In this document: positions 1 to 14,468 of the stretch, piece by piece
How the letters are laid out: each line of letters starts with the position of its first letter
Numbering within the stretch: the stretch's first letter is position 1
From: Candidatus Poribacteria bacterium
Lineage (GTDB): Bacteria > Poribacteria > WGA-4E > PCPOR2b
Assembly (NCBI GenBank): GCA_965215015.1
Contig: OZ244042.1
Coordinates: 5,536,001 to 5,600,000, forward strand
DNA length: 64,000 nucleotides
Direction of reading: 5' to 3'
Notes under the pieces: model-generated
Database searches by the model: none
Told to the model about the DNA's origin: nothing
The model's input: only the letters and a program-made list of their open reading frames with translations
Position numbers and translations under genes: made by a program

Positions 1-267
1 ATTGAAGAAGGGTTGACCGACAACATAGGCGCGAAACATGTGCTTCACTTTACCGAAAGCGTAGCGCATACCGGCGTGCTCGATGAGCGTACACTACCGA
101 TAAAAGCGGCAGGTTGGAGTTGGGCTGTTAAGAACGCAGGCATCGCAATCAAGGCAACCCTGAAAGGGAAAATCAAACCCCTGTTGCCCGGCTCACACCC
201 TTCGGTGACCGAGGTCCGGGATGTCCGGCGCATTCATAAGCAGTTGGAAGAGGGAAAAAGGAAGTAG
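1..267 (+). CDS. C-terminal end of a probable succinate dehydrogenase/fumarate reductase Fe-S subunit (starts before window)
   Basis: Frame open from base 1 (IEEGLTDNIGAKHVLHFTESVAHTGVLDE...). Directly precedes a CCG-domain subunit and fumC. Cys motifs lie outside the window. Confidence 0.55.
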   Translation: MEEGLTDNIGAKHVLHFTESVAHTGVLDERTLPIKAAGWSWAVKNAGIAIKATLKGKIKPLLPGSHPSVTEVRDVRRIHKQLEEGKRK

Positions 268-572
268 GGGGCTCGAGGAAGTTTACGATTCGGTTCACAC
301 GATGAGAAAGTGATGCTCAAATTTTGCTGAGCATACCTTTTGAGAATTGGAAACCACCTATCCGATTTACTGCTTTTCAGCACATCTGAAATTGCTGTCC
401 CATCAGACTGGAACGATTGCAGGTGCAAGCTTGGCGTCAGTTGGAAATCATTAAGACGAACGTATTGCTTAAGCTGTAAGGGGAAGCAAGGAAGAATTCG
501 CTGTCTGTTTTACGCATCACATATCACATATTAGGTTTCACGTTCTAATCACAATTGATACGGGAGGATGTA

Positions 573-1448
573 ATGAGAATTGCCTACTTCCCTGGCTGTG
601 TTGCCAAGGGAAATTGTCCAGAACTGAACCAATCCACTAAAAAGATTGCACCCTTACTCGGTATTGAGTTGGTCGAATTGACAGGTGCACCTTGCACCGG
701 CGCGGGCGTGCTTCAAGCGCAGAATCCGGTGCTTGCCGATACATACAACGCCAAGACCCTTGCGCTCGCGGAGGAACTGGACCTGCCGCTGATGACAATC
801 TGTTCGACCTGCATCGGCTGCCTACGTAAGAGCAATAAGAAACTGTCCGAGGACGAGGACTACCGGGCAGAGGTCAACGCAGTGCTCAAATCCGGTGGAC
901 ACGAGTACCATGGTGGTGTAGATGTCACTCACATTCTCTATGTCGTTATCAAGGAACTCGGTCTGGACAATCTACGCGGCATGGTCAAAAAGCCGCTGAC
1001 TGACTTGCGGATCGCACCGTTTTACGGCTGCTACATCTTGCGTCCTGCCAGCATCATGGGGATTGATGACCCTGACAATCCGACTTCGCTGGAACGCGTG
1101 ATTGAGGCGTTGGGTGGCACCCCAGTAGACTACTACGGCAAAACACGCTGTTGCGGTTTCCCCATCGGGCTTGAGAACGAAGAAGCGTCATTCAAAATGG
1201 CTGGAAAGCATATTGGCGAGGCAAAGGACAAAGGAGCAGATTGCATGGTAACGCCTTGCCCACTCTGCCACATGAACCTTGACCTCCAGCAGCCCGGCGT
1301 TAGTCGAGTGGTCGGACGCCCCCTGGATATGCCGGTGCTTCACCTGCCGCAGATGATCGGTTTGGCACTTGGCTTGCCCCCAAAAGAGTTGGGCCTCGGC
1401 AAACATATAATATCAGCCCAAAACGTGCTAGCAAAGTTAGGGACATAA
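573..1448 (+). CDS. CCG-domain protein (HdrB/SdhE-like), probable membrane-anchor subunit of a type-E succinate dehydrogenase
   Basis: YFPGC, CSTC, FYGC, RCCG and CPLC motifs (two CCG domains). GGGAGG RBS before ATG 573. TCA-cycle context. Confidence 0.85.
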   Translation: MRIAYFPGCVAKGNCPELNQSTKKIAPLLGIELVELTGAPCTGAGVLQAQNPVLADTYNAKTLALAEELDLPLMTICSTCIGCLRKSNKKLSEDEDYRAEVNAVLKSGGHEYHGGVDVTHILYVVIKELGLDNLRGMVKKPLTDLRIAPFYGCYILRPASIMGIDDPDNPTSLERVIEALGGTPVDYYGKTRCCGFPIGLENEEASFKMAGKHIGEAKDKGADCMVTPCPLCHMNLDLQQPGVSRVVGRPLDMPVLHLPQMIGLALGLPPKELGLGKHIISAQNVLAKLGT

Positions 1449-1520
1449 GCGGGTATTGTAAGGGCCTTCGCAAGATTATCAAACCGATTTGCAGCGAAAT
1501 TGGGCTTGAAGGAGAGGTAA

Positions 1521-2909
<1,389 letters not shown>

Positions 2910-3222: not shown

Positions 3223-5139
3223 ATGTTTAAAAAAATCTATGTACCTGTTGATAACTCGGACCATTCCGATGCGAGCGTCAATTTCGCTGTGGAGTTCGCT
3301 AAAAAATTTCAGTCACAACTCGTTGGTTCTCACGTTTATGCAGCGAAGATGCACGATGTTCGTTTCAAGCAGATGGAGTACACACTTCCCGAAGAATATC
3401 AAGATGAAGCTGAACTGGAGAAGCAGCGCCGCATTCATGACACCTTGATTACAATGGGGCTTCAGTTAATCTCCGATTCATACTTGGAGGTCATGAAGAA
3501 GAAATGCGCTGAAAATGACATTCCCTTTGAAGCCAAAATGCCTGAGGGCAAACACTTTATCAAGTTGGTAGAGGACATTCAGGCGAGCGATTACGACCTT
3601 GTAATTATGGGTGCCCTCGGTATGGGGGCGGTTAAGGATAGCCTGCTCGGTGGCGTCGTTGAGCGGGTTGTACGACGCATTCAGGCCGATACCCTTGTGG
3701 TCCGGAATATAGAGGAAATGCACGGACAGAAGGGGCATATTCTCGTCGGAATTGATGGGAGCCCCGAATCCTTCGGTGGACTGAAGACGGCAATACGGAT
3801 CGGCAAGGAGTTTGATAGACAGGTGGAAGCGGTTGGTGTCTATGACCCGTATCTTCACTACGTGGTGTTCAATTCGGTTGTCAGTGTCCTAACCGAGCGA
3901 GCCTCTAAAACTTTCCGATTCAAAGAGCAGGAGCAGTTGCACGAGGAGGTTATCGACACCGGGCTTGCCAAAATCTATCAATCCCATCTGGAGATTGCCC
4001 GAACCATCGCCAAGGAAGACCACAACTACGACCTCAAAATCACCTTGTTGGATGGCAAAGCGTTTGAGAAAATCCTGCAATACGCTCGAAAGACCGAACC
4101 GTGGATGCTAGTGTTGGGCAGAATCGGCGTCCACAGTGATCCCGATATGGACATCGGCAGCAACACCGAAAACTTATTGCGCCTAGCCCCGTGTAATGTG
4201 TTCTTGTCAAGCCAGCGGTATGTTCCAAAAGTTGATGTCAGAGCAGAGGAGACGGTGGTTTGGACACAGGAAGCCTTAGATCGGATGACAAAAGCACCGC
4301 CGCAGGTGCAAGGCATCGCACGCACCGCTGTCCACCGTTTTGCCATTGAACGCGGGCACTCTGTAATTACCGAGAGTGTTATTGAGCAAGCAATGGAGAC
4401 CTTTATGCCGGGACGTTCAGCGGAGCGGATGACCAAAGTTGCGAAAGAGATTGCAACGCAAACAGTGCTGGATTCCAACGCAATCAAGACCTACATCTGT
4501 GGCGATTGTGGCTATGCCGCCCGCGACCAACAACCCGTGAAATGTCCGGTCTGCGGTGTGGCTGGCGACCGATTTCAGATGGTTGATAAAGATTCTCTCC
4601 AGAGGGTTGCAGATCAGGAGGGCGGTGCCAGCGAGGAACAGACCTTCGACGGTGTCCGTCTCCAATGGTCAGATCGGGCGAAAAAAGCGTTGCGGAATGT
4701 TCCAAGGGGGTATATGCGGCGCAACGTCAAAGCGCGAATCGAAAAGTCAGCGCGTGTCCAGAAGATTGGTACAATCACCAACGAGTTTGCGATGCAGATT
4801 ATCAATGAGAGCATGGATCAGGCTTCCGCTGTCCGTGAAGACGCCCCTGAACTGAGAGCTGTCGCGCGGTCCCGCGAGTCCGCTGAGACCTCCCAAGGGG
4901 AAACGTTTGAAAGTTCGCTTGAATGGACGCCAGATGCCCGTGAACGGTTGAACCTCGTGCCCGCTGGATTCATGCGAAACATTACACAATCCCGTGTCGA
5001 GCAACGAGCAAAGGAAGCCAACCTCACGACAATCAGCCTAGATTTCGCAGCGCAGGTGATTGAGGAAGGACGGAGTTTAGACAATGAGGTGCTTGGGACA
5101 TATTACCAGCAGGACGGAGAGGTAGATGAGGGAAAATGA
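3223..5139 (+). CDS. Multidomain protein: two USP domains, PCP_red-like domain, rubredoxin-like CxxC/CxxC, two more PCP_red-like domains
   Basis: USP starts KKIYVPVDNS and HILVGIDGS. W(T/S)xxAxxxL/MxxxP...R...E..A....IT repeats at 4261, 4666 and 4924. YICGDCGY...CPVCG. Confidence 0.85.
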   Translation: MFKKIYVPVDNSDHSDASVNFAVEFAKKFQSQLVGSHVYAAKMHDVRFKQMEYTLPEEYQDEAELEKQRRIHDTLITMGLQLISDSYLEVMKKKCAENDIPFEAKMPEGKHFIKLVEDIQASDYDLVIMGALGMGAVKDSLLGGVVERVVRRIQADTLVVRNIEEMHGQKGHILVGIDGSPESFGGLKTAIRIGKEFDRQVEAVGVYDPYLHYVVFNSVVSVLTERASKTFRFKEQEQLHEEVIDTGLAKIYQSHLEIARTIAKEDHNYDLKITLLDGKAFEKILQYARKTEPWMLVLGRIGVHSDPDMDIGSNTENLLRLAPCNVFLSSQRYVPKVDVRAEETVVWTQEALDRMTKAPPQVQGIARTAVHRFAIERGHSVITESVIEQAMETFMPGRSAERMTKVAKEIATQTVLDSNAIKTYICGDCGYAARDQQPVKCPVCGVAGDRFQMVDKDSLQRVADQEGGASEEQTFDGVRLQWSDRAKKALRNVPRGYMRRNVKARIEKSARVQKIGTITNEFAMQIINESMDQASAVREDAPELRAVARSRESAETSQGETFESSLEWTPDARERLNLVPAGFMRNITQSRVEQRAKEANLTTISLDFAAQVIEEGRSLDNEVLGTYYQQDGEVDEGK

Positions 5140-5290
5140 TGTGCAGACTGAGGAATAGGGGTTAGGACGGAATCTGCCTACGATTATTAATTATATGTTG
5201 AGTGATGGAGTTGAAACGGGAGAAGAGTAACGGCACCTACAGTAGCCCGAACCAAGGAGGCTAAAGTTAAGTTTAAGTCTTTTATTGTGA

Positions 5291-5320
5291 TTGATAAACT
5301 CAACCTGCTAGCTATATGAT
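5291..5320 (+). promoter_or_regulatory. Putative sigma70 promoter of the R-M cassette
   Basis: TTGATA-18 nt-TATGAT, then AGGAGG RBS. Confidence 0.45.
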
Positions 5321-5340
5321 AAATCAGGAGGCGGGAAATA

Positions 5341-6147
5341 ATGCTTGAACTGAACACGCTTTACTGTGGAGATGCTTTCGAGTTACTCAAAAAAGTCAAG
5401 GATGAATCGGTCGATTTGATTGTATGTGATGGACCGTATGGCACAACACAGAATGAATGGGATAAGATATCTTCAATCCAAGAATTTAATCTTAAATTAA
5501 TCAAATGTTTCACACCTAAGTTGAAAGATGGAGGGGCTTTGTATCTGTTTGGCAAGCCTAACTGCATTGACTTTATAGATTACCGCCCATTTTTGAACCT
5601 ACGCTCAAAAATTGTCTGGTATCAACCGAGTCGCCTTGCCCAAGGACGAATCAAATACACCAACAACTATGACATAATATGCTATTTCATTAAGGGCAAA
5701 CGCCCACGATGTTATAATCTAGATGCAATCAGAGTAGCACAGCTTGTTGAGTTGGAGCATCGGCGCCGTTGTGAACGAGTGCCTTCCGTGTTAAATGGCA
5801 AATTTGGAAAGACAAAGTTTAACAAAGAGGGTAAAAATCCGGGAGATGTTTGGGGCGATATAAAACAGCTTACTTATAAATCAAAAGAGTTAGTTCATAG
5901 AAAAGCTCTCAATACTATTCAGAAACCTGAAAAGTTAATGGAAAGGATTGTTTTAGCCAGTTCATCTCCAGGAGATTTAGTCTTAGATCCTTTTGCAGGG
6001 GTCAGCACGTGCCCAGTTGTGTGCAAGAGAAACAGTCGCAATTTTATCGCTTTTGAGATTGAACCAACTTTTGTTCACGCAGGTACAAAGAGACTTCACG
6101 AGCTTGATAACGATCAACAGGGGGTTTTGTTTGCTGATGGCGAGTGA
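5341..6147 (+). CDS. Beta-class N4/N6 amino DNA methyltransferase
   Basis: Catalytic motif variant CDGPY near the N-terminus, QKPEKL, and LVLDPFAG SAM-binding motif near the C-terminus. Confidence 0.9.
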   Translation: MLELNTLYCGDAFELLKKVKDESVDLIVCDGPYGTTQNEWDKISSIQEFNLKLIKCFTPKLKDGGALYLFGKPNCIDFIDYRPFLNLRSKIVWYQPSRLAQGRIKYTNNYDIICYFIKGKRPRCYNLDAIRVAQLVELEHRRRCERVPSVLNGKFGKTKFNKEGKNPGDVWGDIKQLTYKSKELVHRKALNTIQKPEKLMERIVLASSSPGDLVLDPFAGVSTCPVVCKRNSRNFIAFEIEPTFVHAGTKRLHELDNDQQGVLFADGE

Positions 6148-6637
6148 AATATATCGCAAAATCATTGAACTTGTGTTGAAGGCTGCAGAATTAGCAAGGA
6201 CTGTAGGAATTCATAATATTTTACAACCAGGACTCGTCAAGGAGATGATTATTGCTGAGATCCTTAGCCATGAACTGATCACCTCAAAGCAAGACGCGGA
6301 TGCCCGTTCTCCAGATAACCCTACAATTCTGTATGAATACCTATCATGCAAGGAAGGTGGTTCCGGCCAGTTTGATAGAATGTTTAAGCATCCGCCGGAA
6401 AAGCGCCAAGAATCTTTGAATAGAATTTGGAGAAACAATAAAGTCTACTTTGCTGTGTTCTATGCAGCCAATCAAACGAAAGTGAAAGTGATTTTTGAGC
6501 TTGAACCAGAAAGTGTTGTCACAGAAACGGAACGACAACTTGACCGTAGCCGAAATGAAATTTCTCACGTTGGGTTTCGAGAGCGATGGGCACGAGAAAA
6601 TGGGAAAATTGTTTACGAAGATACGGAGCAGCCTTAA
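6137..6637 (+). CDS. PvuII-like type II restriction endonuclease
   Basis: 166 aa, overlapping the MTase stop. Colinear resemblance to R.PvuII from recall: GIHNILQ~GINDIFQ, DA..YEYLS~DA..YELKS, YFAVF..IFELEP~IFAIY..IYRLEP, ENGKIVY~EHGTKIY. Confidence 0.7.
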   Translation: MASEIYRKIIELVLKAAELARTVGIHNILQPGLVKEMIIAEILSHELITSKQDADARSPDNPTILYEYLSCKEGGSGQFDRMFKHPPEKRQESLNRIWRNNKVYFAVFYAANQTKVKVIFELEPESVVTETERQLDRSRNEISHVGFRERWARENGKIVYEDTEQP

Positions 6638-6917
6638 ATGTGTTGGGAGAAGTCAATGCGAGGCATTGACATAACGAACACGGTAACCGTATAGAACTAA
6701 TAGCCGAAATTCCAGAGCAGTGCGTCAATCTGGTATAAGATAAAATACACAGCAACCGATCTTACGCTGAATTTTGCTTCTATCTGCTCATCACCTTGGT
6801 GTTTATCGGGTATAGTATCTCCAATTACCCTTTGTATTTAAACAGGTACTTAAGAAAAATGAATTATCCAGCGTATATCCAAGCCGGGTGTGTGTCAATT
6901 TAGATCGGAGTTTGTCA

Positions 6918-7769
6918 ATGTCCCCCAGAAATCCTTTACATTTTGCAGAAATCCTTGTGTGTCTAGATGACTCAAGCTATTCTCAGGCAGCGGTCGAATA
7001 TGCCACGCAAATCGCTCTTGAACATAAAGCCTCACTAACAGGCATCGGAGTAATTGATCTGCCGGGTATCCAACGTGCAAGTGGGCCCGCGCCAATTGGA
7101 GCGATGCACTACGATCGACTTGCTGACCAGCAACACTTTCAAGAGACGCGGGAGGTAGTCAATGGGGTCCTTAAAGACTTTGGGAACACCTGTCAGGAGA
7201 AAGGGATCCACCACTCCATCCATTCAGAGATGGGCAGCCCATTTCGGGAAATTATTGAAGAATCAAGATTCCACGATTTTATTATAATTGGGCAGAAGAC
7301 CTTTTTTCGGTACAACGTCAAACGTGAACCGGGTAACACCTTGGATCGAATTCTTCATAACGGGTTGACTGCGGTCCTTGCAGTCCCCGATTCTGTCAGA
7401 CCGATTAAAAAAGTGCTCGTCGCTTATGATAACAGCGTCCAAGTTACCAAAGCAATTCATATGTTTCTCCTGCTTCACATCTGGAATCAGTGCCATATCA
7501 CCCTCCTGAATGTGAACAATAATGCAAGTCGTGGCATACAGTTGCTCGGTAGGCTCAGCGATTACTTCAATAGATATGGGGTGCAGCCAGAAAAGGTCCA
7601 ATTGAGAGGCAAGGTAGATGAAGCGATTCTGTCCTACATCCGAGAACATGAAATCGATCTGCTCGTCATGGGAGCGTATGGGAAACGAAGCGTGTCGGAG
7701 TTCGTCTTCGGCAGTGTAACCAAATCCTTGGTGGCGCAGGCGGGCATTCCGTTGTTTATCTATCATTAA
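6918..7769 (+). CDS. Tandem-domain universal stress protein
   Basis: EILVCLDDS and KKVLVAYDNS starts. LLVMGAYG...GSVT ATP-binding motif. Confidence 0.92.
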   Translation: MSPRNPLHFAEILVCLDDSSYSQAAVEYATQIALEHKASLTGIGVIDLPGIQRASGPAPIGAMHYDRLADQQHFQETREVVNGVLKDFGNTCQEKGIHHSIHSEMGSPFREIIEESRFHDFIIIGQKTFFRYNVKREPGNTLDRILHNGLTAVLAVPDSVRPIKKVLVAYDNSVQVTKAIHMFLLLHIWNQCHITLLNVNNNASRGIQLLGRLSDYFNRYGVQPEKVQLRGKVDEAILSYIREHEIDLLVMGAYGKRSVSEFVFGSVTKSLVAQAGIPLFIYH

Positions 7770-7778
7770 TCAAAACTT

Positions 7779-8672
7779 ATGAAAACTTACAAAGACCTCC
7801 CCGCCGATGGCGGTTCTAACATCGTTGGACAAGTGACCCAGCAAGTCAATCGCTTACAAAAACGACTTGCGTCTGTCCGCCACACTCTTGCCATCATGAG
7901 CGGAAAGGGTGGGGTGGGTAAAAGTGCGATTACGGCAAACCTCGCTTCGGCTCTTGGATTGCGCGGACACAATGTTGGCGTAGTTGACGCTGACATCAAT
8001 GGCCCCTCAATTGCCAAAATGATGGGGGTGAGAGGATGCCAAATTGATTATGGTGCCGATGGCGTTAAGCCTGCCCTCAGTCCACTTGGGGTCAAGGTAA
8101 TGTCGATGGATTTGTTCCTCAAGGATGACGAAACCCCTGTTCTGTGGGAAGCCCAAACGCAGAAGGATGCCTTTACCTGGCGGGGGACGATGGAGATGAC
8201 CGCCCTCCGCGAATTCCTCTCTGATACTGAATGGGGAACGCTTGATTATTTGCTGGTCGATCTCCCGCCCGGCACAGACCGTTTGCCGAACCTCGTCGGC
8301 CTCCTGCCGGATCTTGGCGGCACGGTTGTTGTCACAATCCCTTCTGGGGTTTCGCAGCTTATCGTCAAAAAATCGTTGACGATGGCAAAGAAATTACTCA
8401 ACGCACCGGTAATCGGCATCGTCGAAAATATGGCAGCTTACGTCTGCGCCGATTGTGGCAAAACTGAAGATCTGTTCCCATCGGGGCACACGGAGGAGAT
8501 GGCGCGTCAATTTGACATTTCTCTACTCGGCAAAATCCCTTTCGATCCGCGAATTTCTATCGCTGCGGATGAGGGTAGTGCGTTTGTTGATCGATACCGA
8601 GATACTCCCACAGGACAAGCATTTTTCGGCATCACAGATGAAATTCGGATGTTCTTTGAACGGAAAATGTAA
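7779..8672 (+). CDS. Mrp/NBP35 (ApbC) Fe-S cluster carrier ATPase
   Basis: Deviant Walker A GKGGVGKS, DADINGPS, WRG, DLPPGT, ENM..YVCADC. Confidence 0.95.
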   Translation: MKTYKDLPADGGSNIVGQVTQQVNRLQKRLASVRHTLAIMSGKGGVGKSAITANLASALGLRGHNVGVVDADINGPSIAKMMGVRGCQIDYGADGVKPALSPLGVKVMSMDLFLKDDETPVLWEAQTQKDAFTWRGTMEMTALREFLSDTEWGTLDYLLVDLPPGTDRLPNLVGLLPDLGGTVVVTIPSGVSQLIVKKSLTMAKKLLNAPVIGIVENMAAYVCADCGKTEDLFPSGHTEEMARQFDISLLGKIPFDPRISIAADEGSAFVDRYRDTPTGQAFFGITDEIRMFFERKM

Positions 8673-8692
8673 CATATAAACGGAGTGAATCA

Positions 8693-9193
8693 ATGAAATT
8701 CTTATGCCTTGAATGTAACACAGCGATGGAGTTTAGGGAAACAGCGACGCCGGATCAAGGCTCGTTGACGGCTATCTTCGAGTGCCCAGATTGTTTTGCT
8801 GAATTCGCAATGCACATGAACCCGTGGGAAACTCAGATGCTAAAATCCCTTGATGTGCAACTCGGTGGTAAAAGCGAAGCGGCGCAGCCGATGCGGATGG
8901 TACGTTCCTTCTTAACTCAAAAGAACCCAGACAATCTGATCTCCGAAGCACCGCCGGTATCCGCCGAAGGCGGCGGGAAATGCCCGTTCACATTGGTTGT
9001 AGCGGAAGCATTTCAAGAGCCGGAGGCGACCGGGCCGGTATGGACACCAGAAGCGTTAGCGCGTTTGGAGCGCGTGCCTAGTTTCGTCCGTTCGATGGCG
9101 CAGAACAGCATCGAAGAATTCGCCCGTGAGAATGGACACACCGAAATCACTACCGAGGTGATGGAGGCCGCACGGGGTAATTTTGGGATGTAG
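8693..9193 (+). CDS. Zn-ribbon plus PCP_red-like domain protein
   Basis: CLEC...CPDC, GKCPF, and C-terminal WTPEALARLERVPSFVRSMAQNSIEEFARENGHTEITTEVM. Confidence 0.8.
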   Translation: MKFLCLECNTAMEFRETATPDQGSLTAIFECPDCFAEFAMHMNPWETQMLKSLDVQLGGKSEAAQPMRMVRSFLTQKNPDNLISEAPPVSAEGGGKCPFTLVVAEAFQEPEATGPVWTPEALARLERVPSFVRSMAQNSIEEFARENGHTEITTEVMEAARGNFGM

Positions 9194-9205
9194 GGGTCCA
9201 TTACA

Positions 9206-10657
9206 GTGAAAACGGAAGATATTCATCGCACACAAACATCAATAGATTTATCATCGTACCCTATTTCACTATCAGCTATATCGACGAAGATTGCCAAAAA
9301 AAATGGGGGGCGGAAGCGACCTAAACGTGAGGCACATCAACCCGACCTATTCGTCCATCAATTGATGGACAATGTTCGGAAAATTGTGAATCCGTTTGGG
9401 GAGGAGGTTGTGCGGATTGATGGGGATATTCCTGTGGAATTACCTGTTAATGATGGCGATCAATTTCTGTTTATTAGCTACGATCAGACTCATCTCACTC
9501 ACGGATTGCACAAGTATCCTGCTAAATTTTTTCCCGAATTACCGCGTTGGTTAATCAAACGGTATTCTCAAGAAAACGATATGATACTCGATCCGTTTTC
9601 GGGGAGCGGGACGACAAATGTTGAGGCACTCTTACTGAACCGAAACTCTGTCGGTATTGATGTCGATCCATTTTCTCGCTTTATCTCAACTGTCAAGGTA
9701 ACACCCTTAGCTGAAAAGGAACTCATCGAAGCTCAAGAATCTCTGTTTAATGCCGTAGAAGGCTACCAACCCACTCTGGTATCAGAATTGGATATACCGT
9801 CCTTCCCTTACAGGGATAATTGGTTCAACAGAGAAATAATTTTAGAATTGGCTTACTTAAAAAAGATTATTGAGTCCCTTGATAAGAGTAAGCATGTTAA
9901 AGACTTCTTCAGAGTCTGTTTCTCCTCGATTATCCGTTCAGTATCCAACGCCGATGATAATTGCACGAGAACTGTAATTCGGAAGGTGCTGAACAAACAG
10001 GTCAATCCCTCCGATGCCCTGAAGAAATTTGTGGAAACGGTGCTAGTCAAAGTTCCCAAAATGATAGAATTTTCTCAAAACGTACCACAAGATATAACCG
10101 TAAATTTTCCAGAAAACATGGACGCACGGAATATTAAGTACGATGCGGGGACTTTTGACTTGGTTCTTACTTCGCCGCCGTATGTGAATGCAGTCGATTA
10201 TCCGAGAACCCATCAATTAGAGCTCTATTGGTTAGGGTTTGCCGATGGACCTTTAACGCCCTTAAAGAAAAAGCATGTCGGTACTGAAAGTGTTTCATCA
10301 CAGGATTATCGGACCTGCCATCAGATTGATGTGGCAGCGGCGGATAGTGTCATCGAGAAGATTTTTGAAAAGGACCCAAGACGCGCGTATATCGCTTTCA
10401 AATACTTAGACGATATGCAGAGAAATCTGTCTGAAGTTTATTCGGTATTACGCGATGGAGGACGATACATTATTGTCGTAGGCAATAACCGAATCCGTGG
10501 TCAGCTATTTGAAAGCTGGAAGTATCTGATGACCCTGGCAGAAAATATCGGATTTGATATTGAAAGCTATTTTGGATCAGAGATTATCAAACATTTCATT
10601 AAAGTACCCAGAGAGGAACAAATCAACACAGACTGGATTCTGGTACTCAGAAAATGA
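9206..10657 (+). CDS. Alpha-class amino (probably N4-cytosine) DNA methyltransferase, no adjacent endonuclease
   Basis: HKYPAKF, LDPFSGSGTT, later TSPPY. Start position uncertain. Confidence 0.9.
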   Translation: MKTEDIHRTQTSIDLSSYPISLSAISTKIAKKNGGRKRPKREAHQPDLFVHQLMDNVRKIVNPFGEEVVRIDGDIPVELPVNDGDQFLFISYDQTHLTHGLHKYPAKFFPELPRWLIKRYSQENDMILDPFSGSGTTNVEALLLNRNSVGIDVDPFSRFISTVKVTPLAEKELIEAQESLFNAVEGYQPTLVSELDIPSFPYRDNWFNREIILELAYLKKIIESLDKSKHVKDFFRVCFSSIIRSVSNADDNCTRTVIRKVLNKQVNPSDALKKFVETVLVKVPKMIEFSQNVPQDITVNFPENMDARNIKYDAGTFDLVLTSPPYVNAVDYPRTHQLELYWLGFADGPLTPLKKKHVGTESVSSQDYRTCHQIDVAAADSVIEKIFEKDPRRAYIAFKYLDDMQRNLSEVYSVLRDGGRYIIVVGNNRIRGQLFESWKYLMTLAENIGFDIESYFGSEIIKHFIKVPREEQINTDWILVLRK

Positions 10658-10702
10658 AGCAGAGGCATGTAGATTTCCTTACGTTTTACGTTCTACCTAT
10701 TC

Positions 10703-11194
10703 ATGCGCCCAGTTGTTGAACTTTTCATCCGTTGGATACACCTCATCGCTGCAATCGTTTGGGTTGGCGGAATCTTTTTTTCTGTTAGCGTTGCGACACC
10801 GATTCTGAGGCAGCATTTTCATCTCCTTGAAAGTGTCCAACACGCTTCTGTTATTCGGAATCGCCTGCGGCATATTATCCGTTTCACAATCCACATTCTC
10901 CTGATCACCGGTGCGATGAACCTGTTCATCGTCGGACTGAACACACAGATGCACTTTTCGCGAGGCTATGTCGTTGCGTTTATCGTAAAACTTGCCTGTG
11001 TCGGGCTGATGACTCTATTCCATAGCCTTCATATCGCCGTGTTCAATCGGAGGTTGGAATCCGCGGTGGCAAGCCCGAATTTTGACGATTTAGAGGTTTC
11101 TAAGTTGCAAAGAAGAGTAGACCTATTCGGAATTTTTACGATACTTGCTGGCCTTGTTGTGTTTGTGTTAGCTTTGAGTTTGAGGGTCGCTTGA
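10703..11194 (+). CDS. CopD/DUF4149-like four-helix membrane protein
   Basis: RWIHLIAAIVWVGG, LITG, and four hydrophobic segments, three of them containing His. Confidence 0.7.
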   Translation: MRPVVELFIRWIHLIAAIVWVGGIFFSVSVATPILRQHFHLLESVQHASVIRNRLRHIIRFTIHILLITGAMNLFIVGLNTQMHFSRGYVVAFIVKLACVGLMTLFHSLHIAVFNRRLESAVASPNFDDLEVSKLQRRVDLFGIFTILAGLVVFVLALSLRVA

Positions 11195-11229
11195 TAAACG
11201 GAGAAAAGCATTATTAGGAAAGTAGACAG

Positions 11230-12531
11230 ATGGAAACGAAAGTCCAAGCCGTCTCATGGAATATCACACGGCTATGCAATCTCAAATGTATACACTGCTA
11301 TCTCCCCGCTGGATTTGTGGATACCAACGAATTTCCGAGCGGGTATTATCGCGATTCGGAGTTGACCCAATCCCAGTGTTTCCGCGTGATTGATGAGATT
11401 GCTGAAATCAATCCCAACATCCTTTTGATTCTCACAGGTGGCGAACCGTTGCTGCGTCCTGACATTTTGAAAATCTCAGATTACGCAGCTCGAACCGGGT
11501 TCTTAGTGGTGATGGGCACAAACGGCGTCCTGCTGAACGATGAAACGGTCCAGAGGATGAGCGATCACGGTGTTGCTGGTGCAGGCATCAGTTTGGATGC
11601 TGTGGATCCAGTCAATCACGACCAGTTTCGAGGAATGGAAGGGGCTTGGGAAGGCACGATGAACGGTGTCGAAGCTCTCAGGCGGGCAAACCTTGATTTC
11701 CTCGTCCAGACCTCTGTGACGCGTTGGAATTACGATGAGATTCCACAAATCGTTGATTTTGCCTATGAGCTCGGTGCGAAGGTGTTCAACCTCTATTTTC
11801 TCGTAAGAACCGGTAGAGGGAAAACAGTGATGGACATCACCCCTGCTCAATATGAGCGTATGCTCTCGACACTTTTTGAGTTGCAGGCGAAATATCGTGG
11901 CAAAATGCTCGTCGCAGCGAAGTGTGCACCACACTACAAGCGGGTCATCTATGAACAACAATCGGATTCGCCCTTTCTACAAGCCTATCCGAGCGGTACG
12001 TGTCCCTGTGGTATCTATTATTGCCGCATCACGCCTGAAGGTGATTTAACACCTTGCCCGTATATGCAGGTGAGCGTCGGCAATCTGAAGACAGAAAGTT
12101 TTGCGACCCTCTGGAATCAATCTAAAGTTTTTCAAGAGCTACGAGATCGGAAATTGTTGGAGGGTAAGTGTGGCACCTGCGAATTTCGAGACGTTTGCGG
12201 TGGTTGTCGCGCCCGCGCCTACGCGCTCACCGATAACTATCTCGCCGAAGATCCGTCCTGCGAATACCAACCGGGGCAGGCCGGAGGTCAAAACGTTCGG
12301 TTCGAGCAAACGACTCCCTTTGCGGCTGAAACTGACTACGAGCTACAATGGACAGATGCTGCACAACAAAGATTGCAGCGTGTTCCCTCCTTCGCACGAG
12401 GGATGGTCACTAAAAGCGTCGAAAAATACGCCCGTGAACACGGTTACAGTGAAATTACGCCGGAAATCATGAAAGCGGTCAAGAATCGGTTTGATAAAAC
12501 GGGAATCCCGTCTTTCACGCCTCGGCGGTAA
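11230..12531 (+). CDS. Radical SAM/SPASM enzyme (AhbD/NirJ-like) with C-terminal PCP_red-like domain
   Basis: CNLKCIHCY, TGGEPL, CAPHY, SPASM cysteines CPCG..PCPY..CGTCEFRDVCGGCRARA..DPSC, and tail WTDAAQQRLQRVPSFARGMV. Confidence 0.9.
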   Translation: METKVQAVSWNITRLCNLKCIHCYLPAGFVDTNEFPSGYYRDSELTQSQCFRVIDEIAEINPNILLILTGGEPLLRPDILKISDYAARTGFLVVMGTNGVLLNDETVQRMSDHGVAGAGISLDAVDPVNHDQFRGMEGAWEGTMNGVEALRRANLDFLVQTSVTRWNYDEIPQIVDFAYELGAKVFNLYFLVRTGRGKTVMDITPAQYERMLSTLFELQAKYRGKMLVAAKCAPHYKRVIYEQQSDSPFLQAYPSGTCPCGIYYCRITPEGDLTPCPYMQVSVGNLKTESFATLWNQSKVFQELRDRKLLEGKCGTCEFRDVCGGCRARAYALTDNYLAEDPSCEYQPGQAGGQNVRFEQTTPFAAETDYELQWTDAAQQRLQRVPSFARGMVTKSVEKYAREHGYSEITPEIMKAVKNRFDKTGIPSFTPRR

Positions 12532-12648
12532 AATATGGCTGATATATTTTCAGTACTTTTGCGTAAATCCTTATCTGTTCAGGGGTTCAAGAGTTGATCC
12601 ACGTTACACATCACGCATAATATCCGCACATTTGAGGAGAAAAAAATA

Positions 12649-13062
12649 ATGAACAGTGAAAACAAAGTAGAAGAACGATTATCCGCGGTTGAGGACCGGT
12701 TGAATCGTTTGGAAGATTTACTAATCGGTATTAGTCAGAAATTAGATCAGAAACCCCAACCGACCGCAGTTGACGAGGAAAAAGGGGAAGCACTCAAAGG
12801 TTGGGTGACTGATTACGTTTCAATGCGCTTGCAGCAGCTTGTGCCGGAAACGTGCGAACATCCCCATGCAGCTAAGGCGCAAGAAGGTCCATTCTTGGGT
12901 AACACCTCAATCCGTTGCACGGAGGAAGTCGTCCACCGCGTCAAACGCATCCCCATCCCATTTGTTCGGGAAATGGTTGTTCAGCGGGTCGCTGACAACG
13001 CCCAGCGTGCGAATGTGGAGGTAGTCGAGATTGACTTTTTTGAGAAAGCAGCAACTTTTTGA
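12649..13062 (+). CDS. Coiled-coil protein with divergent C-terminal PCP_red-like domain
   Basis: N-terminal heptads (VEERLSAVEDRLNRLEDLL) and CTEEVVHRVKRIPIPFVREMV...EIDFFEKA. GAGGAG RBS. Confidence 0.7.
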   Translation: MNSENKVEERLSAVEDRLNRLEDLLIGISQKLDQKPQPTAVDEEKGEALKGWVTDYVSMRLQQLVPETCEHPHAAKAQEGPFLGNTSIRCTEEVVHRVKRIPIPFVREMVVQRVADNAQRANVEVVEIDFFEKAATF

Positions 13063-13149: not shown

Positions 13150-13644
13150 ATGCCAACATACCCACTCCATAAAAATCAACAGAAAGCCTATCAAGTCTTG
13201 GCTACTCGCATTGATTCTAGGTCTGAGCACGGGACAATTTGCCTTGTCGGAGATTTTCAGTCCGGCAAAACGAACTTAGTCAAACATCTACTCAACGAGA
13301 AATTTGGCAACTCCACAGATTATTACGTAAACTTGAATCTGTATCTGCTTGATGAATTAAACAAACAGCGTGCATCAATCGCTTATGCTGGCGCAAAAGC
13401 AAAAATACACCTCCTGATACAAATCGCTATTGAAGACTTGCTAGAAAGACATTTCCAAACGCGCAATCTTCTCGTCCTTGATGCAATTGAAATAATATAT
13501 TCCTACGAGCTCAATCTTGTTGCGATTGCCGATCGCTTCACCCACAATGGTAAGTGCTGCATCATCTGCGTCCCTCAAAGCAAAAAGCAAAATTACTACT
13601 TTGACTTTAGCTGGGAACTTGCAGAGGCAATCCGAATTGACTGA
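13150..13644 (+). CDS. Small P-loop protein, BrxF-like
   Basis: LVGDFQSGKT Walker A, YVNLNLYL, LLVLDAIEII. Size and motif order resemble BREX-3 BrxF. Confidence 0.6.
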   Translation: MPTYPLHKNQQKAYQVLATRIDSRSEHGTICLVGDFQSGKTNLVKHLLNEKFGNSTDYYVNLNLYLLDELNKQRASIAYAGAKAKIHLLIQIAIEDLLERHFQTRNLLVLDAIEIIYSYELNLVAIADRFTHNGKCCIICVPQSKKQNYYFDFSWELAEAIRID

Positions 13645-13754
13645 AAATGGAATTGAGAGTGTTTGTGCGGCTGCCGTCAAGGCCCGATAGAGTCCCTTCT
13701 ATCTAATCTCCCGAGTCTCTTTACCTATTTGCACATTTCTTTCTGACTTTGGTG

Positions 13755-13783
13755 TTGACTGAAATTGCGGCATGTGATATAGT
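13755..13783 (+). promoter_or_regulatory. Putative sigma70 promoter of the TPR gene
   Basis: TTGACT-17 nt-TATAGT. Confidence 0.5.
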
Positions 13784-13955
13784 TGTTTAGTGATGTTATA
13801 ATTGATAACCTTCCTTGATATTGAGGGGGCTTGGCAGCGCGAATACAATCCAAGTAAGCTCCAAAGATTGGAGATAAACTGCAAATGATTGTATGCTCGC
13901 GAGTGCTAACACCAAGCTCACACAACCTACCTATACCACCAGATTGGAAAGATTC

Positions 13956-14468
13956 ATGAGTAAGCGAGCTGAAATCGCTAACGACCGAGCCATTAAATAT
14001 TGGGAACAGAATCGCTTTGACGAGGCTATTGCTCAATGGGAACAAATCGTTCGTAAAGATCCGAATCTTGCGGAGATACACTATAACCTTGGAAATGCTT
14101 ACATGTACCAAGACAACATTGAAAGGGCAATCGAAGCATTTAAGCGGGCACTGTCTATCGATCCTGCCCTGCCTGAAGCGTACAACAAGTTGGGGATCAT
14201 CTGTTACAAGCAAGGTAATGTAGAACTAGCGTGCGCCTGTTGGAAGCAGGCATTAAAGATTAATCCGGACTTTGAAGAAGTGCACCACAATATGGGATTA
14301 ATCCAAAATACCCCTCAGTTTGACGTGGATGACGAAATACCTGCACACCAGCATGCAACAGAGGATGATGCAAAAGATGATAAAAACGCAAGTATTGAGG
14401 ATGACAACGAGCTACCCACATGGAGAAACCGAATTCGCCAAGGTTGGGGAGCGTTCCGAAGAAAATAA
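13956..14468 (+). CDS. TPR-repeat protein with acidic tail
   Basis: AEIHYNLGNAY, PEAYNKLG and ALKINP repeats. Alternative start at 13893. Confidence 0.9.
   Translation: MSKRAEIANDRAIKYWEQNRFDEAIAQWEQIVRKDPNLAEIHYNLGNAYMYQDNIERAIEAFKRALSIDPALPEAYNKLGIICYKQGNVELACACWKQALKINPDFEEVHHNMGLIQNTPQFDVDDEIPAHQHATEDDAKDDKNASIEDDNELPTWRNRIRQGWGAFRRK

What the first reader, a model, noticed from the sequence alone, without database searches (positions are those of the whole stretch)
3223..13062. Candidate undescribed system: six PCP_red-like modules on four proteins with an Mrp ATPase, USPs and an AhbD-like radical SAM enzyme
Seen: a ~45-aa motif (W-T-x-x-A-x-x-R-L-x-x-V-P-x-F-x-R...E-x-x-A...I-T) occurs three times in the tandem-USP/rubredoxin protein (4261, 4666, 4924). 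It occurs once each in the Zn-ribbon protein (9041), the radical SAM tail (12349) and, divergently, the 137-aa protein (12916). All are co-oriented with an Mrp/NBP35 ATPase, a second USP and a His-containing 4-TM protein. Known: the motif resembles the C-terminal domain of dark protochlorophyllide reductase BchB/ChlB, whose partner BchL belongs to the same SIMIBI ATPase class as Mrp. No photosynthesis genes are in the window. Inference: the domain is a reusable docking tag that assembles these proteins, possibly on the Mrp ATPase, into a stress-linked Fe-S/tetrapyrrole cofactor maturation machine.
Basis: partly seen in the sequence, partly recalled or inferred. Interest (0 to 1): 0.88.

Follow-up and report, generated by a model that had tools for sequence, protein, structure and literature searches.

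The report
Heme-synthase system tied to cytochrome oxidase
A conserved and apparently undescribed gene set, whose proteins all carry the same small 45-residue module, sits beside the cytochrome c oxidase and heme A genes in many bacteria and probably makes and handles heme without oxygen.

Summary
Pfam finds PCP_red (PF08369) three times in the tandem-USP/rubredoxin protein and once each in the Zn-ribbon protein and the radical SAM tail. The 137-aa protein carries a divergent sixth copy (hhalign 91%). These six are the only PCP_red matches in the 5.94-Mb genome, so there is no BchB.

The cluster lies 6-17 kb downstream of the genome's only A-type cytochrome c oxidase operon (COX2-COX1-CtaA-CtaB-COX3-COX4-SCO1). 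The same link recurs in three deep clades of the radical SAM tree, with different gene orders. Of 22 metagenome loci of at least 10 kb that hold the Mrp gene, 16 also hold COX or heme A genes.

The radical SAM enzyme is the genome's only AhbD-like protein. It has AhbD's exact auxiliary-cluster motif but scores below the equivalog cut-off. HemF, true HemN and canonical ChdC were not found.

Best reading: an oxygen-independent AhbD-type heme b synthase with a dedicated Mrp-like ATPase and PCP_red-tagged Cys4/USP partners, feeding terminal-oxidase biogenesis. The two DNA methylase genes are insertions. I found no description in print.

The parts
3223..5139 (+). Tandem USP, PCP_red, rubredoxin-like Cys4, PCP_red, PCP_red protein (638 aa)
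   Evidence: Pfam Usp 123.5 bits, PCP_red in 3 stretches, RUBY_RBDX 26.3 bits against a cut-off of 26.5. The four Cys are kept in 88-100% of 16 full-length orthologues. Identity to 22 Poribacteria loci is 85-97%.
4261..4392 (+). PCP_red module 1
   Evidence: 43.8 bits, over the cut-off.
4492..4575 (+). Rubredoxin-like CxxC...CxxC domain (residues 424-451)
4666..4788 (+). PCP_red module 2
   Evidence: 33.7 bits.
4924..5046 (+). PCP_red module 3
   Evidence: 36.9 bits.
5341..6637 (+). Inserted low-GC cassette: an N6/N4 DNA methyltransferase (5341-6147) and an unknown ORF (5993-6637). Not part of the system.
   Evidence: Pfam N6_N4_Mtase 121.6 bits. Not matched in any of the 24 Poribacteria loci. 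GC is 0.41 against 0.51 for the neighbouring gene, and the flanks align to a locus without the insert.
6888..7769 (+). Second tandem USP protein (293 aa)
   Evidence: Pfam Usp 96.2 bits. Conserved in close Poribacteria only. Other lineages have a PQQ-type propeller or a GNAT gene at this position.
7779..8672 (+). Dedicated Mrp/NBP35-like P-loop ATPase paralogue
   Evidence: PF10609 253.6 bits. The ApbC and MrpORP equivalogs score below their cut-offs. A housekeeping Mrp lies elsewhere, beside an IscS-like gene. Walker A is invariant. CxxC is present here but lost in some orthologues.
8693..9193 (+). Zn-ribbon, linker with Cys-Pro-Phe motif, PCP_red protein (166 aa)
   Evidence: The four ribbon Cys and C97-P98-F99 are invariant in 14 aligned orthologues, and the motif is kept in 16 of 17. 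The start overlaps the Mrp stop in several lineages.
9206..10657 (+). Inserted DNA methyltransferase gene. Not part of the system.
   Evidence: Pfam N6_N4_Mtase 78.4 bits. Present in 7 of 24 Poribacteria loci. About 1.43 kb is inserted relative to L001, with GC 0.42.
10703..11194 (+). 4-TM His-rich membrane protein, CopD/HemJ/DUF2269-like
   Evidence: CopD 28.3 bits and UPF0093 25.6 bits, both below their cut-offs. Found only in the Poribacteria lineage.
11230..12531 (+). AhbD-type radical SAM/SPASM enzyme with a PCP_red tail (433 aa)
   Evidence: TIGR04545 326.8 bits (cut-off 500) and NirJ2 305.5 bits. It is the only AhbD-like gene in the genome. The CX3CX2C motif and C314/C317/C323/C326/C344 are invariant.
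12349..12483 (+). PCP_red module of the radical SAM tail
   Evidence: 65.5 bits. It aligns to ChlB 455-507 of 511 in 2xdq_B.
12649..13062 (+). p137: coiled-coil N-terminus, a conserved WVTDYVSMRLQQLVPETC block and a divergent PCP_red tail
   Evidence: Pfam 17.4 bits. hhalign 91.4%. Soil loci L034 and L035 have orthologues at 55-58% identity next to their radical SAM gene.
555..2909 (+). Context: a CCG-domain (HdrB/SdhE-like) protein and class II fumarase. They lie between the oxidase operon and the cluster.
   Evidence: SdhA- and SdhB-like genes lie just upstream of the window.

Best explanation
This is a real, widely conserved multi-protein system, and I found no description of it. Its common currency is the PCP_red module.

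Core parts: (1) an AhbD-type radical SAM/SPASM enzyme with one to three PCP_red modules on its tail; (2) a dedicated Mrp/NBP35-like ATPase paralogue; (3) a small Zn-ribbon/Cys-Pro-Phe/PCP_red protein, translationally coupled to Mrp; (4) a tandem-USP protein carrying one to six PCP_red modules and a rubredoxin-like Cys4 centre. Poribacteria add a CopD/HemJ-like 4-TM protein and p137.

Shown: the system is genomically attached to terminal-oxidase and heme A biogenesis genes.

Inferred mechanism:
- The radical SAM enzyme performs the oxygen-independent last step of heme b synthesis, turning coproheme into heme b as AhbD does. The heme goes on to CtaB, CtaA and cytochrome c oxidase when oxygen or peroxide is too scarce for a ChdC-type enzyme.
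- The Mrp paralogue loads or ATP-gates the enzyme's [4Fe-4S] clusters.
- The Cys4 domains on the PCP_red proteins give or take the electrons that AhbD chemistry needs.
- PCP_red is the shared module that brings these proteins together.
- The nucleotide-binding USP domains tie activity to energy or oxygen stress.
For: Clustering. All six PCP_red matches of the genome lie in this 9-kb stretch. In the Poribacteria phylum, 136 of 151 genomes have matches, nearly always 5 or 6 per genome.

Conservation.
- Of 24 Poribacteria loci, 24 keep Mrp next to ZnPCP and 22 keep USP-PCP3, 4TM, rSAM-PCP and p137.
- Of 81 further loci (80 metagenome loci and one alphaproteobacterial MAG), 46 hold Mrp, 25 hold USP-PCP and 28 hold ZnPCP.
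- USP-PCP_red relatives number 327 representative clusters at E<=1e-30. Sources name them only 'universal stress protein'. They come from Manganitrophus, Nitrospinota, Mariprofundaceae, Thiodiazotropha, Sedimenticola, Thiolapillus and Gallionella.

Oxidase link.
- In this genome COX2, COX1, CtaA, CtaB, COX3 (two), COX4 and SCO1 lie 3-11 kb upstream of the window on the same strand. This is the only COX1 hit.
- Of 34 loci of at least 10 kb, 16 hold COX or heme A genes, and all 16 are among the 22 that hold Mrp.
- The link occurs in three deep, starred clades of the radical SAM tree, with different gene orders.
- Other clades have cytochrome c, bd-like oxidase, EB_dh heme domains or ACIII ActD as neighbours.
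- In L020 the cluster is followed by a DUF420 (CtaM-type) gene and a ChdC-like gene.
- I paired printed coordinates by hand for 60 Poribacteria genomes. In 59 of them the ZnPCP gene lies 9-22 kb from CtaA.

AhbD reading.
- The two best NCBIfam models are AhbD and NirJ2.
- The auxiliary motif CX2CX5CX2CX17C, given for AhbD in PMC10114771 (passages), is matched exactly by invariant Cys.
- The only other hit of the AhbD model in the genome is MoaA.
- HemY/CgoX and ferrochelatase are present. There is no HemF. The best HemN-like hit scores 175 bits against a cut-off of 325. The ChdC equivalog scores 40-43 bits against 253.
- Reviews state that AhbD does this step in some coproporphyrin-pathway organisms (passages) and that AhbD needs an electron acceptor.

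Mrp as a dedicated partner. It is a second paralogue; the housekeeping one sits beside an IscS-like gene. The Mrp stop and ZnPCP start overlap in L083, L089, L090, L097 and L098.
Against: - The radical SAM scores 327 bits, under the AhbD equivalog cut-off of 500. No activity is known for this clade.
- A divergent ChdC-like gene is present in families f1-f4 (60-67 bits, C-terminal half only). It may already do the step, so the gap-filling argument is not clean.
- The system is not needed for heme A oxidases. In families f4 and f5, 9 of 9 genomes have CtaA but only 1 of 9 has PCP_red.
- Of 34 loci of at least 10 kb, 12 have the radical SAM without Mrp.
- In five genomes of genus g8 the radical SAM gene lies far from the ZnPCP/CtaA cluster.
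- Mrp orthologues of the soil type-A clade (L053, L055, L063, L064) and L073 lack the CxxC motif. This argues against a universal Fe-S carrier role.
- Nothing here shows that PCP_red binds a protein, or what it binds.
- Kin share gene order, so counts within Poribacteria are not independent.
Confidence: 0.45

Rival explanations
1. PCP_red modules are small tetrapyrrole-binding units that hold or buffer heme or coproheme. They are not protein-docking tags. The USP protein with 1-6 copies and the Zn-ribbon protein would then hold coproheme or heme and hand it between the ferrochelatase, the radical SAM enzyme and CtaB/CtaA. This can coexist with the AhbD reading.
For: Copy number varies from 1 to 6 like beads on a string. 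A Cys-Pro-Phe motif just before the module is kept in 16 of 17 ZnPCP proteins. It resembles Cys-Pro heme regulatory motifs; that resemblance is recalled, not tested. In BchB the module sits on a tetrapyrrole enzyme. Every neighbourhood is rich in heme proteins.
Against: The BchB helix that covers the pigment is at about residues 400-415, not in the PCP_red tail at 475-531 (passages). No invariant His or Cys lies inside the module: the invariant positions are W, A, P and A. No binding data exist.
Confidence: 0.2
2. The radical SAM enzyme does a different tetrapyrrole reaction that serves the oxidase. Examples would be an oxygen-independent step towards heme O or heme A, or another heme derivative. 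It would not decarboxylate coproheme.
For: It falls below the AhbD equivalog cut-off and forms its own clade with a tail that AhbD lacks. It lies beside CtaA and CtaB in several lineages. A ChdC-like gene that could make heme b is also present.
Against: It has the exact AhbD auxiliary-cluster motif, and its best models are the two AhbD-type families. CtaA and CtaB are present and look complete. Anammox-type relatives carry the same enzyme with three tails.
Confidence: 0.13
3. The set is mainly a regulatory or stress module, with USP proteins and an ATPase, that is co-regulated with the respiratory chain under hypoxia. It would control oxidase assembly or activity, not cofactor synthesis. The radical SAM would be a separate passenger.
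For: There are two tandem-USP proteins. In five g8 genomes the radical SAM gene is elsewhere while ZnPCP stays near CtaA. Some Mrp orthologues lack the Fe-S motif. Named carriers include sulfur, iron and manganese oxidisers; that many of these live at low oxygen is my recollection.
Against: The radical SAM shares the PCP_red module with the other proteins, and every PCP_red copy in the genome lies in this cluster. The radical SAM is adjacent to Mrp or ZnPCP in many metagenome loci: 46 of 81 loci hold both. No DNA-binding or signalling domain is present.
Confidence: 0.1
4. The radical SAM/SPASM enzyme is a protein maturase. It would modify a Cys of the PCP_red proteins or of an oxidase subunit, as SPASM enzymes do with peptides, and PCP_red would be its recognition element.
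For: A SPASM domain is present, and many SPASM peptide maturases appear among the weaker matches. The Cys-Pro-Phe motif lies next to the module in ZnPCP. The module is present on both the enzyme and the candidate substrates.
Against: The tetrapyrrole enzymes (AhbD, NirJ2, TIGR04053, NirJ, AhbC) score far above the peptide maturases. Type-A loci have no ZnPCP yet keep the enzyme. No short precursor peptide genes were seen.
Confidence: 0.05

Closest known systems
AhbD (heme b synthase; NCBIfam TIGR04545 and the NirJ2 family TIGR04055)
   Same: Radical SAM CX3CX2C motif, SPASM domain and the exact auxiliary motif CX2CX5CX2CX17C. It is the best-scoring model, matched over its whole length (2-339 of 339). 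AhbD is known to serve coproporphyrin-pathway organisms that lack the rest of the AHB pathway (passages).
   Different: It scores 327 bits against a cut-off of 500. It carries one to three C-terminal PCP_red modules that the 339-position model lacks. It sits with a dedicated Mrp and USP/Cys4 partners next to an aerobic oxidase operon.
C-terminal PCP_red domain of DPOR subunit BchB/ChlB, and the stand-alone domains solved by NMR (2L09 Asr4154, 2KRU)
   Same: The same Pfam family, with clear sequence matches: profile E 1e-13 to 2xdq_B residues 460-507 and to 2l09_A.
   Different: There is no Oxidored_nitro domain and no DPOR in the genome. The module is repeated and spread over four proteins. 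I could not find its role in BchB in the texts I could read.
Mrp/NBP35/ApbC/NUBPL Fe-S cluster carrier ATPases (NCBIfam also names MrpORP)
   Same: PF10609 at 253.6 bits, an invariant Walker A, and CxxC present in the window's copy.
   Different: It is a second paralogue. It is below the ApbC (176 against 348) and MrpORP (258 against 450) cut-offs. It has its own conserved N-terminus. CxxC is deleted in one clade.
Cytochrome c oxidase assembly and heme A factors (CtaA, CtaB, SCO1, CtaM/DUF420, the CopD domain of CtiP)
   Same: They share the gene neighbourhood. A CopD-type membrane protein has a precedent in oxidase assembly (passage in PMC9145763). CtaM/DUF420 is needed for active oxidase (passage in PMC8239418).
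   Different: None of the system's proteins belongs to these families. The 4-TM protein is below the CopD and HemJ cut-offs. The review of assembly proteins (PMC9145763) does not contain the terms radical SAM, universal stress, Mrp, heme synthase or HemQ.
ChdC/HemQ (peroxide-dependent coproheme decarboxylase)
   Same: It would catalyse the same net step. A divergent ChdC-like gene is linked to the same supercluster in relatives.
   Different: An unrelated fold and chemistry, and oxygen or peroxide dependent (passages).

Membership tests
PCP_red (PF08369) | Match to the Pfam model at or above the gathering score (32.5 bits) | tested here: met
   Five modules are over the cut-off in the six-frame search (43.8, 33.7, 36.9, 71.6 and 65.5 bits). 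Whole-protein scores are 94.5, 69.1 and 61.2 bits.
PCP_red (PF08369), sixth copy in p137 | Match at or above the gathering score | tested here: not met
   17.4-19 bits. Profile-profile comparison gives 91.4% probability, E 9e-7. It is a divergent relative with Cys in place of the Trp.
DPOR subunit B (BchB/ChlB) | Nitrogenase-like Oxidored_nitro core, and the equivalog score | tested here: not met
   Only the last 55-60 positions of the BchB models match, at 46-54 bits against cut-offs of 490-509. There is no other PCP_red frame in the genome.
AhbD heme b synthase | Radical SAM CX3CX2C cluster motif | tested here: met
   C16, C20 and C23 are invariant in 12 aligned sequences.
AhbD heme b synthase | C-terminal auxiliary motif CX2CX5CX2CX17C (as given in PMC10114771; passage seen) | tested here: met
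   C314, C317, C323, C326 and C344 are invariant. I counted the spacing on the translation.
AhbD heme b synthase | NCBIfam equivalog cut-off (500 bits) | tested here: not met
   326.8 bits for TIGR04545 and 305.5 bits for NirJ2.
AhbD heme b synthase | Converts coproheme to heme b | not testable with these tools
   Needs an enzyme assay.
Mrp/NBP35/ApbC Fe-S carrier | P-loop ATPase fold of PF10609 with Walker A | tested here: met
   253.6 bits. S41-S49 are invariant.
Mrp/NBP35/ApbC Fe-S carrier | C-terminal CxxC that bridges a [4Fe-4S] cluster (feature recalled) | tested here: inconclusive
   The motif is present in the window's protein and in 11 other rows. It is absent in 5 of the 17 aligned orthologues (L053, L055, L063, L064, L073).
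Mrp/NBP35/ApbC Fe-S carrier | NCBIfam ApbC or MrpORP equivalog cut-offs | tested here: not met
   175.8 against 348, and 258.1 against 450.
Universal stress protein | Pfam Usp above the cut-off, as a tandem pair | tested here: met
   123.5 bits and 96.2 bits, two stretches each.
Rubredoxin-like Cys4 domain | Model score and four Cys | tested here: inconclusive
   RUBY_RBDX scores 26.3 bits against a cut-off of 26.5. The four Cys are kept in 88-100% of 16 orthologues. The bound metal is unknown.
CopD / HemJ (UPF0093) | Pfam gathering scores | tested here: not met
   28.3 against 32.1, and 25.6 against 34.2. It is the only HemJ-model hit in the genome, at 26.3 bits.

The most novel reading that the evidence does not exclude
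PCP_red is a general, portable docking tag that plugs proteins into SIMIBI-class Fe-S ATPases: BchL in DPOR and this Mrp paralogue here. The tagged proteins (an AhbD-type heme synthase, Cys4 redox carriers and a USP scaffold) would then assemble on demand into an ATP-gated heme-making and heme-delivering complex dedicated to terminal oxidases in low-oxygen bacteria. This would also give a function to the unexplained C-terminal tail of BchB/ChlB and to the orphan PCP_red proteins whose structures were solved without a function.
Probability: 0.2. Interest if true: 0.85.

Novelty: new variant of a known kind. Interest (0 to 1): 0.72.

Why it matters
How heme b is finished and handed to heme O and heme A synthases and to oxidases at low oxygen is poorly understood outside a few model organisms. 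The reviews I read treat AhbD in coproporphyrin-pathway organisms only as a bioinformatic observation.

This locus offers a concrete, testable package found in several bacterial phyla: Poribacteria, Nitrospirota, Nitrospinota and several classes of Pseudomonadota, with anammox-type relatives of the radical SAM enzyme. It contains a distinct AhbD clade with built-in PCP_red tails, its own Mrp-type ATPase, and USP/Cys4 partners that share the tail module. In several deep lineages it is wired next to the aa3 oxidase and heme A genes.

It also gives the first functional context for a Pfam domain known only as the tail of BchB. And it gives a large family now annotated only as 'universal stress protein' a specific hypothesis.

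Tried and rejected

I tried it once more after more than twenty other calls, as that message allowed. It was then reported as switched off, and I stopped. No fold or complex evidence exists in this report. The protein-atlas search did not hold the two sequences and could not read new ones.

Role of the tail in BchB. The DPOR structure papers were not held. Passages in PMC13474568, bioRxiv 10.1101/2025.02.17.634645, PMC4071322 and PMC12022308 place the pigment-covering helix at about 400-415. They say nothing about the extreme C-terminal domain.

Expression. No RNA holder was listed, and read laying was not used.

Signals in the DNA. Rfam gave no match in the window. The promoter and terminator scans gave fewer sites than the shuffles and were not used.

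Literature. Searches for 'PCP_red' (6 unrelated papers), 'PF08369' (3 trait or algal surveys), radical SAM + ctaB + universal stress protein + cytochrome c oxidase + Mrp (1 unrelated paper), Poribacteria + heme + oxidase + radical SAM and anammox + AhbD (none) found no description of this system. Gene-neighbourhood tables of PMC8239418 and PMC9145763, if they exist there, could mention these neighbours.

Considered and dropped:
- The 4-TM protein as the missing protoporphyrinogen or coproporphyrinogen oxidase. A HemY/CgoX-type gene is present.
- The methylases as parts of the system. They are variable low-GC insertions.
- The cluster's Mrp as the cell's general Fe-S carrier. A better-scoring copy lies beside an IscS-like gene.
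- A strict complementary pattern between ChdC and the radical SAM. Families f1-f3 have both a divergent ChdC-like gene and the radical SAM.

My first ORF clustering was spoiled by shadow ORFs in high-GC contigs. I replaced it with a GC3-filtered one. Even so, gene counts from clusters are lower bounds, and the tblastn counts are the ones used. Only 3 of the 24 close Poribacteria loci (L001, L020, L024) went into the clustering and the tree. L103 did not enter the tree.

Full report

Pfam finds PCP_red (PF08369) three times in the 638-aa protein at 3223-5139. It finds it once in the 166-aa protein at 8693-9193 and once in the tail of the 433-aa radical SAM/SPASM protein at 11230-12531. All of these are far above the gathering score. 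In the 137-aa protein at 12649-13062 the match is weak (17.4 bits, E 0.005).

A six-frame search of the whole 5.94-Mb genome finds exactly these six places and nothing else. The modules are therefore clustered far beyond chance, and the genome has no BchB/ChlB. The window's six modules align with each other around a W-T-x-x-A-x-x-R-L...P-x-F-x-R...E...A pattern. The sixth, divergent copy is supported by a profile-profile comparison (91.4%, E 9e-7).

- a tandem USP at 6888-7769;
- an Mrp/NBP35-type ATPase at 7779-8672;
- a 4-TM protein with sub-threshold CopD/UPF0093 matches at 10703-11194;
- an AhbD/NirJ2-like radical SAM enzyme.

THE ORGANISM AND CONSERVATION AMONG ITS KIN

Relatives of the Zn-ribbon protein come from Candidatus Poribacteria MAGs, plus one Dongiaceae MAG. 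In 24 Poribacteria loci, Mrp and ZnPCP are adjacent in all 24. USP-PCP3, the 4-TM gene, rSAM-PCP and p137 are present in the same order in 22.

The second methylase is present in 7 of the 24 loci and the first in none. Both are low-GC (0.41-0.42 against 0.51) and are inserted into short intergenic spacers. They are passengers, not parts of the system.

Across the phylum, 136 of 151 genomes searched have PCP_red, almost always 5 or 6 matches each. By family the counts are 134 of 135 in f1-f3, 0 of 4 in f4, 1 of 5 in f5 and 0 of 6 in f6-f9.

THE SYSTEM EXISTS WELL OUTSIDE PORIBACTERIA

Homologues of the radical SAM enzyme with the PCP_red tail reach about 50% identity in other lineages. They include 629-aa forms that one source names 'nirJ 3' of Brocadiaceae, and these carry three PCP_red modules in the tail.

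A metagenome scan with that alignment returned 80 loci. Counting these 80 loci and the Dongiaceae locus (81 in all) by tblastn, 46 hold the Mrp gene, 25 the USP-PCP protein and 28 a ZnPCP with its Zn-ribbon.

Two main gene orders occur: USP-PCP3, rSAM, Mrp; and (USP-PCP3, GNAT) Mrp, ZnPCP, rSAM.

The USP-PCP_red protein family is large. It has 3612 representative clusters at E<=0.001 and 327 at E<=1e-30. Family members carry 1 to 6 PCP_red modules, before or after the USP pair, often with one or two rubredoxin-like domains. The sources call them only 'universal stress protein'. Named carriers include Candidatus Manganitrophus, Nitrospinota, Mariprofundaceae, Candidatus Thiodiazotropha, Sedimenticola, Thiolapillus, Gallionella and Burkholderiales.

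THE DECISIVE CONTEXT: TERMINAL OXIDASES AND HEME

I clustered the neighbouring ORFs of the loci and named cluster representatives with Pfam. The recurring neighbours are COX1, COX2, COX3, COX4_pro, a UbiA-type heme O synthase and COX15-CtaA.

In the window's own genome the only COX1 hit lies just upstream of the window. The order there is COX2, COX1, CtaA, CtaB (heme o synthase, 270.6 bits against a cut-off of 210), two COX3-like genes, COX4 and SCO1/SenC. SdhA, SdhB, a CCG-domain protein and fumarase follow, and then the PCP_red cluster. All are on the + strand.

Of 34 loci of at least 10 kb, 16 hold COX or heme A genes. All 16 are among the 22 that hold Mrp. Most of the six Mrp loci without COX genes have less than 2.7 kb of flank on the side where the operon would lie.

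On a tree of 79 radical SAM sequences, the oxidase neighbourhood occurs in three deep, well-supported clades with different gene orders: Poribacteria, soil type A and soil type B. It is therefore not one inherited arrangement.

Other clades have other respiratory heme proteins as neighbours:
- a cytochrome c, divergent to the radical SAM gene, in the marine low-GC clade;
- a bd-type oxidase subunit I-like protein with cytochrome c and an EB_dh heme domain;
- ACIII ActD.

In locus L020 the cluster is followed by a DUF420 gene and a Chlor_dismutase (ChdC-like) gene. DUF420 is the family of CtaM, which is needed for active aa3 oxidase (passage in PMC8239418; title and listing of PMC4958251). The same DUF420 and ChdC-like pair exists in the window's genome at 1.85 Mb.

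I paired printed coordinates by hand for 60 Poribacteria genomes, not for all that were printed. In 59 the ZnPCP frame lies 9-22 kb from CtaA; in one (G062) it lies 223 kb away.

WHAT THE RADICAL SAM ENZYME MOST LIKELY DOES

Its best NCBIfam models are AhbD (326.8 bits, model positions 2-339 of 339) and NirJ2 (305.5 bits). NirJ, AhbC and the peptide maturases score well below, but it stays under the 500-bit equivalog cut-offs.

It has the CX3CX2C motif. It also has, with exact spacing, the auxiliary-cluster motif CX2CX5CX2CX17C that a review gives for AhbD, as against CX2CX5CX20-21C for NirJ (passages of PMC10114771; invariant Cys).

It is the only AhbD-like gene in the genome. The second hit of the model is MoaA.

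For the rest of the heme pathway, the genome has:
- a HemY/CgoX-type oxidase (331 bits) and a ferrochelatase;
- no HemF;
- only a HemN-like protein under the cut-off (175 against 325);
- only a divergent ChdC-like protein that matches the C-terminal half of the Pfam model and scores 40-43 bits against 253 for the ChdC equivalog.

Reviews state that the last step of the coproporphyrin pathway is done by AhbD in some organisms. They also state that AhbD occurs in coproporphyrin-pathway prokaryotes that lack the rest of the AHB pathway (passages of PMC7242693 and PMC13564367).

An AhbD-type, oxygen-independent heme b synthase placed next to heme O synthase, heme A synthase and the oxidase makes a coherent pathway block. 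This assignment is an inference; no activity is known for this clade.

THE PARTNERS

Mrp. It is a second paralogue. A better-scoring copy lies beside an IscS-like cysteine desulfurase. The cluster's copy has an invariant Walker A and its own conserved N-terminus. It has the CxxC motif in the window. The motif is deleted in four type-A soil orthologues and lost in L073. A pure Fe-S carrier role therefore cannot hold for all members, and an ATP-driven assembly or gating role is equally possible.

ZnPCP. It has four invariant ribbon Cys and an invariant Cys-Pro-Phe just before the module (16 of 17 and 14 of 14 sequences). Its start overlaps the Mrp stop in L083, L089, L090, L097 and L098. One singleton 341-aa protein joins an Mrp domain to the first half of ZnPCP. 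This is weak evidence and may be an assembly error.

USP protein. The rubredoxin-like Cys4 of the USP protein is kept in 88-100% of 16 orthologues. AhbD chemistry needs an electron donor for SAM cleavage and an acceptor for the leftover electron (passage). The two Cys4 domains are therefore natural candidates, and PCP_red a natural candidate for the piece that brings them to the enzyme.

RESULTS THAT CUT AGAINST THE READING

- The system is not required for heme A oxidases. Families f4 and f5 have CtaA in 9 of 9 genomes but PCP_red in 1 of 9.
- Family f5 has a canonical full-length ChdC (190-195 bits). Families f1-f4 have only the divergent half-match (58-67 bits). Families f1-f3 thus have both a ChdC-like gene and the radical SAM, and the phyletic pattern is only loosely complementary.
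- In the four f4 genomes the ChdC-like gene lies within 3 kb of CtaA. This supports the idea that a heme b synthase belongs in this supercluster. It also shows that the ChdC-like protein may be the main enzyme.
- Twelve of 34 long loci have the radical SAM without Mrp.
- In five g8 genomes the radical SAM gene lies far from the ZnPCP/CtaA region.
- Counts inside one phylum are not independent.

COMPARISON WITH WHAT IS KNOWN

The nearest known things are:
- AhbD: same chemistry motifs, but below the cut-off, with extra tails and partners;
- the BchB/ChlB tail and two orphan PCP_red NMR structures, 2L09 and 2KRU: same domain, no stated function in what I could read;
- Mrp/NBP35/ApbC carriers;
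- the oxidase assembly factors in the neighbourhood.

A review of bacterial oxidase assembly proteins contains none of the terms radical SAM, universal stress, Mrp, heme synthase or HemQ. It does describe a CopD-type domain in an assembly factor, which is a precedent for the 4-TM protein.

Five literature searches found no description of this gene set. Supplements were closed.

VERDICT

The finding is real, and it is more interesting than a repeat curiosity. It is a conserved, multi-phylum system, described nowhere I could find, that shares one small module across four to five proteins and is tied to heme and terminal-oxidase biogenesis.

My confidence in each step:
- the system is real and conserved: very high;
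- the link to heme and terminal-oxidase biogenesis: about 0.75;
- AhbD-type heme b synthesis as the catalytic step: about 0.55;
- PCP_red as a docking module and Mrp as cluster loader: about 0.4 each, untested.

Noticed in passing
window 5341-6637 and 9206-10657; L106:2905-3828: Three DNA methyltransferase genes (two N6_N4 type, one D12 type) are inserted in the same orientation into short spacers of respiratory operons. Two have low GC (0.41-0.42); the GC of the D12 gene was not measured. They are variably present among Poribacteria: the second in 7 of 24 loci, the first in none. Other loci show different large gaps after the USP-PCP3 gene, which suggests an insertion hot spot.
   Followed up: partly
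L106:13220-16000 and window 1-2909: A non-classical succinate dehydrogenase set (SdhA, SdhB, a CCG-domain subunit) and class II fumarase lie between the oxidase operon and the PCP_red cluster, all co-oriented.
   Followed up: partly
G000:C1:1850842-1852225 (L107): A DUF420 (CtaM-type) gene sits directly upstream of a divergent ChdC-like gene. In relatives (L020, L024) this pair lies a few genes after p137. In the four family-f4 genomes, which lack PCP_red, the ChdC-like gene lies within 3 kb of CtaA.
   Followed up: partly
L053, L055, L063, L064, L073 (Mrp orthologues): The Mrp-like ATPase of one soil clade has an 11-residue deletion that removes the CxxC motif. L073 has no Cys there.
   Followed up: partly
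G069, G076, G095, G099, G114 (listing): In genus g8 of the phylum the radical SAM-PCP_red gene lies hundreds of kb to several Mb from the ZnPCP/CtaA region, so the cluster is split there.
   Followed up: no
window 13150-14468: A 164-aa P-loop protein (weak AAA_14/Roc matches) and a 191-aa TPR protein follow p137. They are conserved only in close Poribacteria relatives.
   Followed up: no
P0442: A single 341-aa protein from one contig joins an Mrp domain to the first half of a ZnPCP (87% identity over 48% of the query). It is either a true fusion or a frameshift or assembly error.
   Followed up: no
L106:10282-10884: The first of the two COX3-like genes also gives a weak DUF420 match (33.9 bits) in the six-frame search.
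   Followed up: no
P0297: One USP-PCP_red relative has an N-terminal stretch with a sub-threshold PNPOx-like match (23.8 bits against 28.1). This is a flavin- or heme-binding barrel family by recollection.
   Followed up: no
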